From positions 58,342,001 to 58,406,000 of the forward strand of contig OZ260664.1 of the NCBI GenBank assembly GCA_965285935.1: DNA of 64,000 bases, given 5' to 3'. A program made the position numbers. This stretch comes from Ophelia neglecta. Its lineage: Eukaryota. Positions 40,601 to 43,600 of the stretch are shown here, piece by piece (the first letter of the stretch is position 1; each line of letters begins with the position of its first letter).

Positions 40601-43600
40601 TATAATATATAAATATACATAAATAAATCAACAAGACAGGCAACAGTAAGCAATAGGGCTACCGTTGGCAGACAGAATTAATGGCATTGATGTTTTTCCA
40701 GTAGTGTTTTTGTGAATATTGTCATGTTATGATATGCATAATTTACTGGGTTTTATAACACAATATGCTCCTGAAGGTACAATTTTACAATGTGAATTCA
40801 CAGACCATTGTAGACCTATATTATTCCCAGATGAATTCAAGTACACTTGTAACTAAGTATGTTCTTTCTAAATTGTTCAAATACAAGCTGGGAGTAGACT
40901 CATTCCTCCATTGTACTCTCAGCTTACACCAATAGTAAATAAACAATGACTGTACCTGTGCTGGTTTGCAATAACCATTGGCATCAACACATAGAAGGCC
41001 GAGGACGGGTCTAAAAAAACATAATTATGCAATGTACACATGTATGTGTGTGTAGCTGATGATATATGACAGGGCAGACTTAAAATGATACTATCAGGTT
41101 AAACTAATTGAATAAATTCATTGTTAGCTGCCTGTGATCTGACCCATGATTGCCATTGTACCAACAAGCAGGTTTTGGAGTTGATACTAAGTAGGGCAAT
41201 CCCTTCCCCTCCCCCATTTAAAAGTGAAATAGCCATAACCTCACCTTAAATCAAACAAGTAACTTACCATCAGGAAGATCAACAGTCCTTGCTCTCTTCA
41301 AGGATCTTGCCAAATGCTGAAGGAATTCCATGTTGGCAATAATTACAGCACCCTAAAATTACATATATATATATAATATATATACATGTAAGCTTGTGAA
41401 ACTATTAATATTCATACTGTAAGTTGGAGTCTAGGTTTTATTGTTTTCTTATTAATGTTATGTAGTGTATAAGTGCTACTTTTAATTCTTTTATTTCTTT
41501 TTTTAATTGGGAGCATTTTGCAAAGCGCTGGCATCCTAAATCCTGACCATTGCACCTATAAGCCTATTAATACTGATATTAAACGAATGGTCAAATTAAA
41601 AAGGATTAAATCAATCAGAAGTTTCAGTCAATCAATGAATTCTTAAATATATAGCTTTAAAAATAAATAAATAAAAGTCCCTGGTGAAAGCCCCTTGTTA
41701 GTCATTGGCCTTGGTGGCAGCCTTTTATCTATATTTAGGTCTTCCTTTCAGGTGATGATGTAGGGGAAAGATAACAGTTAACAAAATCAGCATTTACTTA
41801 ACACGCCCTCTGGTGGCTATTGCAGTCCCGGACAGTTAGTGGAGACTCCTGTTGGCGATTTTGTAATGTGATGTGGGGCGTCCCTAAACGGAGGATCTAA
41901 TATAGGAGGATGCACCTGCGCCATGTATAAGCGCGCATTTGGAGGATGCACCTGCGCCATGTATAAGCACATCCGCCAATTGATTTGGAGGATGCATCTG
42001 CAGCCATGTATAAGCGGCGCCGCACTAAACCGCGGATGTTGGTAATATATTAGCAGCCATATATTGGGCGGTCATGGCGGACACTATATATATGTGGGCC
42101 TGGGTGGGATACATGGCGGATGTGCTGGCAGAGTACTGGGCAAGGTATCCGTTTTTAGTTTAGGGAGCGTTCATTATTTATGGCCGGGGGGGTGGGGGGG
42201 GGGTGGGGGGGGTGGTCTCAGATCTGAAGTCTCAGATATTAGGGACGGACCATTTGATATTTGGGGGGGGGGGCCTAGAAAATTTTGGAAAAAAATTGTT
42301 TGTTTTCACTTTTGTACAATATATATTTCTAAATAAAATTGCGCACCCTGTGAATAGACTAAAAAAAAACTGTCCCCCCCATGGAAATGGGTTGAAAAAA
42401 AACTGTCCCCCTATGTCCCCCCCCAAATTTACCACCCCCCCCCCCGGCCATAAATAATGAACGCTCCCTATACCCAAAAAACGTGTATTTATGGCCAACT
42501 GAAAACAATTTTTTTACATATGGCCGGGGGGGGGGGGGGGGGGGGGGGGTGGTCTCAGATCTGAAGTCTCAGATATTAGGGACGGACCATTTGATATTTG
42601 GGGGGGGGGGCCTAGAAAATTTTGGAAAAAAATTGTTTTCAGTTGGCCATAAATACACGTTTTTTGGGTATAGGGAGCGTTCATTATTTATGGCCGGGCG
42701 GGGGGGTGGTAAATTTGGGGGGGGACATGGGGGGGACAGTTTTTTTTCAACCCATTTCCATGGGGGGGACAGTTTTTTTTTAGTCTATTCACAGGGTGCG
42801 CAATTTTATTTAGAAATATATATTGTACAAAAGTGAAAACAAACAATTTTTTTCCAAAATTTTCTAGGCCCCCCCCCCAAATATCAAATGGTCCGTCCCT
42901 AATATCTGAGACTTCAGATCTGAGACCACCCCCCCCCCCCCCCCCGGCCATAAATAATGAACGCTCCCTAAACTAAAAACGGATACCTTGCCCAGTACTC
43001 TGCCAGCACATCCGCCATGTATCCCACCCAGGCCCACATATATATAGTGTCCGCCATGACCGCCCAATATATGGCTGCTAATATATTACCAACATCCGCG
43101 GTTTAGTGCGGCGCCGCTTATACATGGCTGCAGATGCATCCTCCAAATCAATTGGCGGATGTGCTTATACATGGCGCAGGTGCATCCTCCAAATGCGCGC
43201 TTATACATGGCGCAGGTGCATCCTCCTATATTAGATCCTCCGTTTAGGGACGCCCTGTGATGTGCAGGTGTCATGGCCGCGATCAGATGTAAACACAGAA
43301 GAACAGGTACGGAGGTAAGCTTGGTTTTTCTGCTTCTAAATGGTCAGCAAGTTATTCAAAAATAACTTAAGCTACAATCCTGAAGCATTTCCCCCTAATA
43401 CCTTGCTGTTTTGGGTTAATATCCAGTGGTTTTGCCGTGGTTGCCCTTGATTTGCCATGGTTGCCCCTTTTAAATACACCCCAATACATGTAGGAATTGC
43501 TTTATCAATAAAAACCAGAAATAATAGTATGTGAACTGTGAAGTCAGATAAAAATTATTTTTGGAGAAAAAATGTACGAAAAAACAAAACAAAAGGGATA

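What the first reader, a model, noticed from the sequence alone, without database searches (positions are those of the whole stretch)
41867..43264. 1.38-kb near-perfect palindromic transposon with 9-bp TSD and symmetrically duplicated nested MITEs
Seen: arms 41876-~42525 and ~42627-43255 are reverse complements around a ~100-bp spacer, and the spacer is itself a third copy of an arm segment (~42179-42290). Each arm has modular subterminal repeats, a complete TA-flanked MITE, and inside that a second MITE-like end (TAGGGACGGACCATTTGATATTTGGGG). The perfect TSD TGTGATGTG indicates a recent insertion. Established: 9-bp TSDs with long modular TIRs characterise Mutator/Foldback elements. Inference: a passenger MITE inserted in one arm was copied to the other by arm-to-arm conversion or snap-back synthesis, so the carrier amplifies its passengers. 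If transcribed, it would form a ~630-bp dsRNA (siRNA or ADAR substrate); it also has multiple G-quadruplex-prone runs.
Basis: partly seen in the sequence, partly recalled or inferred. Interest (0 to 1): 0.75.

Follow-up and report, generated by a model that had tools for sequence, protein, structure and literature searches.

The report
Young palindromic foldback-type DNA transposon
A 1.38-kb non-coding mobile DNA element that is almost a perfect palindrome sits just upstream of an invertebrate HACE1 gene; it is a clean, recent example of a known kind (a foldback transposon), not a new kind of system.

Summary
Window 41876-43255 (1380 bp) is flanked by a perfect 9-bp direct repeat. It consists of two inverted arms, 41876-42518 and 42623-43255. 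These share 629 of 644 aligned columns, and every difference but the innermost lies in a G/C homopolymer. The arms surround a 104-nt loop. Each arm has three subterminal repeats and one TA-flanked, TIR-bounded ~300-bp unit, called M1 here. The loop holds a third, partial M1 copy, and its homology overlaps the right arm by 13 perfectly complementary bases. I read it as a non-autonomous foldback-type cut-and-paste transposon. Its palindrome was most likely built by templated copying of one arm, passenger included, sealed at that microhomology, shortly before or after a recent insertion 545 bp upstream of the HACE1 start codon. The superfamily is unresolved: Mutator/Foldback is favoured, but Merlin (8-9-bp duplication, 5'-GG ends) also fits. 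The "second MITE-like end" has no inverted partner. Sibling copies and a transposase partner could not be sought, because no animal genome collection was available. This is a new member of a known kind, of modest interest.

The parts
41867..41875 (.). left copy of the 9-bp target-site duplication (TGTGATGTG)
   Evidence: read; identical to 43256-43264
41876..42518 (+). left arm of the palindrome (643 nt)
   Evidence: 629 of 644 aligned columns identical to the reverse complement of the right arm
41876..42162 (+). outer 'carrier' part of the left arm (287 nt), including the terminal 19-mer. It occurs only at the two ends of the element.
   Evidence: 2 matches with up to 3 mismatches, 0.00 expected; I1: 100% complementary to 42969-43255
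41905..42016 (+). three direct subterminal repeats of ~28-30 nt (41905-41933, 41941-41969, 41987-42016). Start-to-start spacing is 36 and 46 nt. They are candidate transposase-binding sites (inference).
   Evidence: (D6, D9, D11)
42163..42468 (+). M1, left copy: a 306-bp TIR-bounded unit flanked by TA (42161-42162 and 42469-42470), rich in G and C runs
   Evidence: RNA fold z-score -7.5
42471..42518 (+). inner end of the left arm. It contains the 13-mer 42503-42515 that is complementary to 42626-42638.
   Evidence: (D14)
42519..42622 (+). loop (104 nt) between the arms
42520..42638 (+). third, partial, direct copy of M1. It matches M1 left positions ~42179-42301 and lacks the M1 terminal ~17 nt and the 3' half. 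Its last 13-16 nt are also the first bases of the right arm.
42626..42638 (+). 13-nt junction microhomology, shared by the third M1 copy and the right arm
   Evidence: (I8, D14)
42623..43255 (-). right arm of the palindrome (633 nt)
42673..42968 (-). M1, right copy (296 bp, inverted), flanked by TA (42671-42672 and 42969-42970)
42969..43255 (-). outer 'carrier' part of the right arm (287 nt), with three subterminal repeats (43115-43144, 43162-43190, 43198-43226)
   Evidence: (D7, D10, D12)
43256..43264 (.). right copy of the 9-bp target-site duplication
41268..41331 (-). context: first coding exon of a HACE1 orthologue (start codon at 41331-41329), 545 nt from the left end of the element

Best explanation
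Window 41876-43255 is a non-autonomous, foldback-type class II (cut-and-paste) transposon. It has no coding capacity. It would be moved in trans by a transposase that makes 9-bp staggered target cuts. That transposase would recognise the identical termini and, probably, the three subterminal repeats in each arm.

The near-perfect palindrome is secondary. A progenitor already carried a TA-flanked passenger (M1) near one end. One arm, passenger included, was then used as the template for the other arm. This could have happened by snap-back of a broken or nascent 3' end, or by repair of one end from the other end. The copying was sealed at a 13-nt microhomology. The ~120-nt direct third copy of M1 in the loop is most simply a product of the same multi-switch copying event.

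The element inserted, or was remodelled in place, very recently. It lies 545 bp upstream of the HACE1 start codon.

Shown: the anatomy, the duplication, the arm identity, the junction overlap, the absence of coding capacity and the gene context.

Inferred: mobility in trans, binding-site roles, the copying mechanism and its order relative to insertion, and the superfamily (Mutator/Foldback favoured over Merlin).
For: - Perfect 9-bp direct repeat exactly abutting the ends of the inverted repeat.
- The terminal 19-mer is found only at the two ends.
- Three subterminal repeats per arm.
- 0 of 8 ORFs overlapping the element have a Pfam family (proteins 60-67).
- The arms are identical outside homopolymers: 629 of 644 columns, 3 mismatches and 12 gap columns.
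- M1 sits in mirror positions with the same TA flanks in both arms.
- The third M1 segment is identical to both arm copies except in G-runs (119 of 123, 112 of 123 and 111 of 123 columns identical, with all differences at G-runs). Its homology runs 13 perfect bases into the right arm (I8/D14, 45). This is the signature of a template switch.
- Flanks on the two sides are different unique sequence. A simple fold-back chimeric read therefore cannot explain it.
- Literature, passages read: foldback structure with 9-bp duplication goes with Mutator/Phantom transposases (PMC3169594, PMC4079207; Table 1 of PMC6446971 lists 9 bp for many MULE groups, including Rehavkus, with TIRs of 26-400 bp). TIR extension by copying one TIR plus adjacent internal sequence onto the other is described for Galileo (PMC3573991, Discussion). 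Fold-back at short inverted repeats is a modelled route to inverted duplications (PMC4689423).
Against: - Only one copy is available. No sibling, progenitor or autonomous partner was seen: none elsewhere in the window and none in the prokaryote genome collection, which says little about an animal element. A protein-level proxy search with a translated arm gave only 2 weak hits, to unrelated repetitive proteins, and the Atlas gave no usable hit.
- A single 9-bp duplication cannot exclude an 8-bp cut plus one chance base.
- Merlin fits the duplication length and the 5'-GG end (PMC8101967).
- The other junction of the loop (42515-42520) shows no clear microhomology.
- The inner 45 nt of the arms could be the pre-existing TIR of an M1-related unit rather than a 13-nt chance microhomology.
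- Homopolymer differences may be sequencing errors, so the apparent age is uncertain.
Confidence: 0.62

Rival explanations
1. It is the same kind of non-autonomous palindromic element but belongs to the Merlin superfamily, mobilised by an IS1016/IS1595-like transposase, not to Mutator/Foldback.
For: Merlin elements are described with 8- or 9-bp duplications, TIRs of 24-462 bp and a conserved terminal 5'-GG (PMC8101967, Introduction passage, citing Feschotte 2004). This element has a 9-bp duplication and begins GGG.
Against: The 643-nt arms exceed the cited TIR range. Foldback architecture with modular subterminal repeats and 9-bp duplication is most often tied to Mutator in the passages read (PMC4079207, PMC3169594). 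No transposase of either type is in the window.
Confidence: 0.25
2. The centre (42471-42665) is an independent, older M1-related small element with its own 45-nt TIRs. Those pre-existing inverted repeats, not a 13-nt microhomology, nucleated the hairpin from which the palindrome was extended outward. The third M1 segment then pre-dates the event.
For: The inner 45 nt of each arm include a 10-nt string shared with the M1 TIR and a ~19-nt stretch resembling the M1 interior (reading). The centre is itself TA-flanked on both sides.
Against: The central M1 segment is identical to the arm copies outside G-runs. An older independent relative should have diverged. No free copy of such a unit is in the window.
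Confidence: 0.25
3. The carrier always had long TIRs. M1 entered one arm and was transferred to the other by gene conversion between the arms in place, without any fold-back synthesis.
For: The Galileo discussion (PMC3573991) proposes exactly such repair of one TIR from the other. Arm identity is complete outside homopolymers.
Against: It does not by itself explain the extra direct partial M1 copy in the loop or the overlap of that copy with the right arm. It is mechanistically close to the main explanation and cannot be separated from it with one copy.
Confidence: 0.15
4. The inner symmetry is an assembly or read artefact (a collapsed or chimeric palindrome). Only the termini and the duplication are real.
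For: All arm differences sit in homopolymers, which are error-prone. Long perfect palindromes are hard to assemble. The window has an N run elsewhere, so the assembly is not gap-free.
Against: The two flanks are distinct unique sequences with a perfect 9-bp duplication. The loop has an ordered structure with a defined junction overlap, which a missed-adapter chimera would not produce.
Confidence: 0.07
5. It belongs to a superfamily that makes 8-bp duplications (hAT, P, some MULEs such as Spectre). The ninth matching base is chance.
For: One extra matching base has a chance of about 1 in 4 on either side. Spectre MULEs are listed with 8 bp (PMC6446971, passage).
Against: With an 8-bp duplication the two termini would no longer be exact inverted copies. 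The ends do not resemble the hAT terminal motif as I recall it (recalled, not tested).
Confidence: 0.06

Closest known systems
Drosophila Foldback (FB) elements and FB-like families: Tm1 of Meloidogyne (PMC3169594) and Tetris of D. virilis (PMC4079207)
   Same: Most of the element is long, modular inverted repeats with subterminal repeats. Duplication is 9 bp (Tm1: mostly 9 bp; Tetris: 8-10 bp). There are non-coding, MITE-like forms. Other elements are found nested inside (Tm1 passage).
   Different: FB, Tm1 and Tetris arms are built largely from many short tandem repeats. Here there are only three subterminal repeats, and more than half of each arm is a nested passenger plus adjacent sequence. 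No transposase-bearing relative is known for this one.
Galileo (P superfamily) TIR extension, Drosophila mojavensis (PMC3573991)
   Same: The TIRs grow by recruiting internal sequence. One TIR plus downstream sequence is copied onto the other (the authors' 'TIR1-F1-F1-TIR2'). The two TIRs of a copy are 98-100% identical.
   Different: As I recall (no call), Galileo makes 7-bp duplications and has a P-type/THAP transposase. The recruited sequence there is not described in the passages I read as a complete nested element. No junction microhomology is described in those passages.
Merlin non-autonomous elements (PMC8101967, citing Feschotte 2004)
   Same: 8-9-bp duplication, terminal 5'-GG, and TIRs that can be hundreds of bp long.
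   Different: The arms here are longer than the cited maximum (462 bp) and the whole element is palindromic. No IS1595-type transposase link has been shown.
Rehavkus and other animal MULE groups (Table 1 of PMC6446971)
   Same: 9-bp duplication and TIRs up to 400 bp. Hosts include annelids and arthropods, and the HACE1 exons in this window are closest to an annelid's.
   Different: Rehavkus is defined by a PHD-finger transposase and a minisatellite. Neither is present or testable here.
Inverted duplications formed by fold-back or template switching at short inverted repeats (models discussed in PMC4689423)
   Same: An inverted copy is joined to its template through a short inverted repeat or microhomology, leaving an asymmetric spacer.
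   Different: Those are chromosomal amplifications of kilobases to megabases in yeast and human. Here the event lies inside a 1.4-kb mobile element, whose new arm supplies a second functional-looking terminus.

Membership tests
Foldback-type element (structural class) | Long inverted repeats make up most of the element, with a short middle domain | tested here: met
   Arms of 643 and 633 nt and a loop of 104 nt, out of 1380 nt
Foldback-type element (structural class) | Modular or internally repetitive arms | tested here: met
   Three ~28-30-nt direct repeats per arm. This is far fewer than in FB or Tm1.
Foldback-type element (structural class) | Dispersed multi-copy family with target-site duplications | not testable with these tools
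   There is one copy in the window. No animal genome collection was available.
Mutator superfamily (MULE, including Phantom/FB/Rehavkus) | Target-site duplication of about 9 bp (8-11) | tested here: met
   9 of 9 bases. Ranges are from passages of PMC6446971 Table 1 and PMC3169594.
Mutator superfamily (MULE, including Phantom/FB/Rehavkus) | Mobilised by or related to an element encoding a MULE-domain DDE transposase with the same termini | not testable with these tools
   No transposase family among 102 ORFs of 75 aa or more in the window, nor among the 78 further ORFs scanned, out of 114 ORFs of 38 aa or more listed in 36.4-46.7 kb
Merlin superfamily | 8- or 9-bp duplication and terminal 5'-GG | tested here: met
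   The criterion is from the Introduction passage of PMC8101967.
Merlin superfamily | IS1016/IS1595-like transposase partner | not testable with these tools
   None in the window
hAT superfamily | 8-bp duplication | tested here: not met
   The duplication is 9 bp. An 8-bp reading breaks the symmetry of the termini.
MITE, Tc1/mariner (Stowaway-like) type: the nested unit M1 | Small, non-coding, with TIRs and a TA duplication | tested here: met
   306 and 296 bp; 30-nt perfect TIR (50 nt at 84%); TA on both sides of both copies
MITE, Tc1/mariner (Stowaway-like) type: the nested unit M1 | High copy number, with free-standing copies elsewhere | tested here: inconclusive
   All 4 matches to its 23-nt end lie inside the element. 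64 kb is too little to judge. The inverted repeat also continues weakly 11 nt beyond the TA (I6), so the boundaries rest on one locus.
   3 copies of the 25-mer, one per M1 segment, and none as an inverted partner within a unit. The only nearby inverted match is a 12-nt G-run/C-run pair (I15).

The most novel reading that the evidence does not exclude
This single copy may be a snapshot of how foldback elements are born. One replicative or repair event with two template switches (a ~120-nt direct re-copy, then an inverted copy of a whole 643-nt arm, sealed at a 13-nt microhomology) turns an ordinary or one-ended element into a perfect palindrome. That palindrome has two identical, transposase-competent ends and double the number of passenger MITEs. 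It also places a potential 630-bp hairpin-RNA source in the 5' region of a conserved gene (HACE1). If sibling copies show graded stages, this would give a direct, sequence-level mechanism for de novo origin of foldback families and of hairpin small-RNA loci directed against the passenger family.
Probability: 0.15. Interest if true: 0.55.

Novelty: new member of a known kind. Interest (0 to 1): 0.32.

Why it matters
If the reading is right, the locus is an unusually clean record of TIR extension, because it is young: there are no substitutions outside homopolymers. The template arm, the copied arm, the extra re-copied piece and the junction microhomology can all still be read. Such junctions are usually eroded in foldback families.

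The locus also marks a probably active or recently active DNA transposon family in an invertebrate genome. It places a long perfect hairpin with G-quadruplex-prone runs 545 bp upstream of the HACE1 coding start, where it could affect transcription, replication stability or small-RNA production.

None of this changes what is known about the class. It adds a well-resolved example.

Tried and rejected
1. Sibling copies by DNA. Exact scans of the prokaryote genome collection with the outer 19-mer and the M1 23-mer gave 0 and 0 loci. This was expected for an animal element and is not informative.

2. Sibling copies by proxy. A 65-aa translation of the outer arm was searched against 1.84 billion representative proteins. 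It gave 2 hits at E 7e-6 and 2e-5. Both are internally repetitive proteins at 24-32% identity and were judged spurious. The ESM Atlas gave no usable hit.

3. Print. The terminal strings of the carrier and of M1, on both strands, were searched in the paper library and found in 0 papers.

4. RNA families. There were 0 matches at gathering score in the whole window. At E up to 1 there were 6 weak matches in the element, all far below gathering (best 37 bits against 77) and all on G/C-run hairpins. These were rejected.

5. Other superfamilies by reading.
- PIF/Harbinger for M1: the 3-nt flanks differ.
- piggyBac: no TTAA.
- hAT for the carrier: 9 bp, not 8 bp.

6. 'Second MITE' inside M1: rejected.

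7. Taxon. The GLTP ORF search gave at best 63% identity, to an unnamed record. HACE1 exons are closest to an annelid's.

8. The orphan 333-aa ORF at 55917-56915(-) gave no homologue among 2398 candidates.
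Full report
**What is there**

The window reads like an invertebrate animal genome. GC is about 0.33-0.47 in 2-kb steps. There is one N run at 13244-13379, which I left alone. I do not take the contig for human.

At the finding's coordinates, a 1380-bp segment (41876-43255) is flanked by a perfect 9-bp direct repeat, TGTGATGTG (41867-41875 and 43256-43264). 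With the window's base counts, a 9-nt match at a fixed pair of positions has a chance of about 7e-6 (my arithmetic). The inverted repeat stops exactly at the duplication, because the next bases outward are not complementary.

**Arms and loop**

- BLAST of the element against the window gave 24 rows. 23 of them lie inside the element, and the other is a 29-nt G/C-run hit at 44786-44814.
- The arms are 41876-42518 and 42623-43255. A global alignment gives 629 identical, 3 mismatch and 12 gap columns of 644.
- Every difference lies in or beside a G/C homopolymer, except one mismatch at the inner edge.
- The outer 327 nt are 100% complementary.
- It is the only large inverted repeat in the 64 kb: 15 pairs of 30 nt or more were found, and 11 of them are inside this element.
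- As single-stranded DNA it folds into one hairpin of -843 kcal/mol. The tool gives no shuffle control at this length.

**Modules**

The outer 287 nt of each arm is the 'carrier'.
- It starts with a 19-mer found nowhere else in the window (2 matches, 0.00 expected).
- It holds three direct repeats of ~28-30 nt. The 15-mer core gives 6 matches, 3 per arm, against 0.06 expected.

Next comes a unit I call M1, at 42163-42468 and, inverted, at 42673-42968.
- Its ends are a 30-nt perfect inverted repeat (50 nt at 84%).
- Both copies are flanked by TA on both sides.
- All G/C runs of the element lie in M1-derived sequence. 7 of the window's 18 G/C runs of 10 nt or more, and 4 of its 10 G4-motif blocks, are in the element.

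The only nearby inverted match is a 12-nt G-run/C-run pair. I reject that part of the finding.

None of the 8 ORFs that overlap the element has a Pfam family.

**The centre**

The loop is 104 nt (42519-42622). Positions 42520-42638 are a third, direct, partial copy of M1, matching 42179-42301 (96.7% of 123).

Over that 123-column block, the identical columns are:

| Pair | Identical columns of 123 |
|---|---|
| centre and left arm | 119 |
| centre and right arm | 112 |
| left arm and right arm | 111 |

All differences are at G-runs.

The homology of the third copy does not stop at the loop. Its last 13 bases (42626-42638) are also the first bases of the right arm, and they are the exact complement of 42503-42515 in the left arm (D14/I8, 45). 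The other loop junction, around 42515-42520, shows no clear microhomology.

**How it most likely came about (inference)**

Mirror-image copies of a passenger, with identical TA flanks, in arms that are identical outside homopolymers, are not what two independent insertions would give. One arm was copied from the other after M1 had inserted.

The overlap of the third M1 segment with the right arm is what a template switch leaves. A 3' end finishing in that 13-mer paired with its complement ~110 nt upstream, and synthesis then ran back through the inner segment, M1 and the carrier to the terminus.

The central segment is as identical to the arm copies as they are to each other. The simplest account is therefore one event with two switches: a direct re-copy of ~120 nt, then the inverted copy.

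One locus cannot separate three variants:
- snap-back of a broken or nascent strand before transposition;
- repair of one end from the other in place, the Galileo model (PMC3573991, Discussion passages);
- nucleation at a pre-existing 45-nt inverted repeat of an older M1-related unit.

Models of fold-back at short inverted repeats are discussed in PMC4689423 (passages).

**What kind of element**

The combination of features is the foldback type of class II element: a 9-bp duplication, long modular arms, no coding capacity and a small middle domain.

In the passages I read:
- Tm1 combines FB-like arms, mostly 9-bp duplications and a Phantom/Mutator transposase (PMC3169594).
- Tetris authors state that most foldbacks seem to belong to Mutator (PMC4079207).
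- Table 1 of PMC6446971 lists 9 bp for many MULE groups. One is Rehavkus, with TIRs of 26-400 bp and hosts in Arthropoda and Annelida.

Merlin elements are also described with 8-9-bp duplications, TIRs up to 462 bp and a terminal 5'-GG (PMC8101967, Introduction passage), and this element starts GGG. With no transposase in the window, the superfamily is open. I favour Mutator/Foldback at roughly 2:1.

**Context**

A HACE1 orthologue lies on the minus strand.
- HECT exons were found and ankyrin exons.
- A search with one exon gave 641 proteins at E of 0.001 or less among 726 candidates. The named ones among the 120 listed carry HACE1 or HECT-type E3 ligase names in the source or UniRef label. 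The best named match is Owenia fusiformis, at 92% over half the query.
- tblastn of three named homologues gave 23, 18 and 20 segments, all between 29857 and 41331 on the minus strand.

The exons were located one by one. The joined, spliced-model step was left out.

The first coding exon starts at 41331 and is preceded by a possible acceptor. The element therefore lies 545 nt upstream of the start codon, in a promoter, a 5'-UTR exon or a first intron. Which of these cannot be told without transcripts.

A single-ORF GLTP gene lies at 46655-47302(+).

**What stayed unchecked**

- The only DNA collection open to me holds bacteria and archaea (0 hits).
- A protein-level proxy search found nothing credible.
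- The terminal strings are in none of the searchable papers.
- Read-level support, expression, small RNAs and editing are untested.

The operators note a virus-like stretch in the window. I found no reverse transcriptase, integrase, capsid or transposase family in 102 ORFs. The only virus-labelled match is a sub-threshold hit of a translated 24-nt tandem repeat (see the items noticed in passing). I treated the element itself as the mobile stretch and only described it.

**Verdict**

It is a young foldback-type non-autonomous transposon whose palindrome was built by copying one arm, passenger included. It is a new member of a known kind, of modest interest, and its main value is the unusually legible junction.

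Noticed in passing
window 29857-41331 (-): HACE1 orthologue (ankyrin repeats plus a HECT domain) spread over about 20 exon-sized matches. Exon identities are highest to an annelid (Owenia fusiformis) protein.
   Followed up: partly
window 46655-47302 (+): Uninterrupted 215-aa ORF with a full glycolipid-transfer-protein domain (Pfam E 2.7e-40). The best database relative is only 63% identical and unnamed.
   Followed up: partly
window 8492-8734, 10182-10851, 16815-17494, 19026-19863, 21496-21816: Five minisatellite arrays with units of 20-56 nt and up to 35 copies. A translation of the 24-nt array gives a sub-threshold match to the phage T4 gp5 C-terminal repeat (21.6 bits against a cut-off of 30.9), which is a repeat artefact. 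Translations of the 22-nt array give other spurious low-complexity matches.
   Followed up: no
window 12091-13224 (+) and N run 13244-13379: A 377-aa serine-rich ORF with no Pfam family ends just before the only N run of the window. The N run was left untouched.
   Followed up: no
window 55914-57385: GC-rich island (0.47) with two consecutive minus-strand ORFs of 333 and 151 aa, Arg/Ser-rich with a coiled-coil-like middle. They have no Pfam family, and the 333-aa ORF, the only one searched, has no homologue. A perfect 32+32-nt palindrome at 57318-57385 abuts them.
   Followed up: partly
window-wide: G or C homopolymers of 10 nt or more are frequent: 18 in 64 kb, 11 of them outside the element. 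Long G/C runs are therefore a trait of this genome or of its repeats, not only of the element.
   Followed up: no
window 42152-42162 and 42469-42479: The inverted repeat of M1 continues weakly for 11 nt beyond its TA flanks (I6: 61 nt at 82%). Either M1 is slightly longer than the TA-bounded unit, or it inserted into a locally palindromic site.
   Followed up: no
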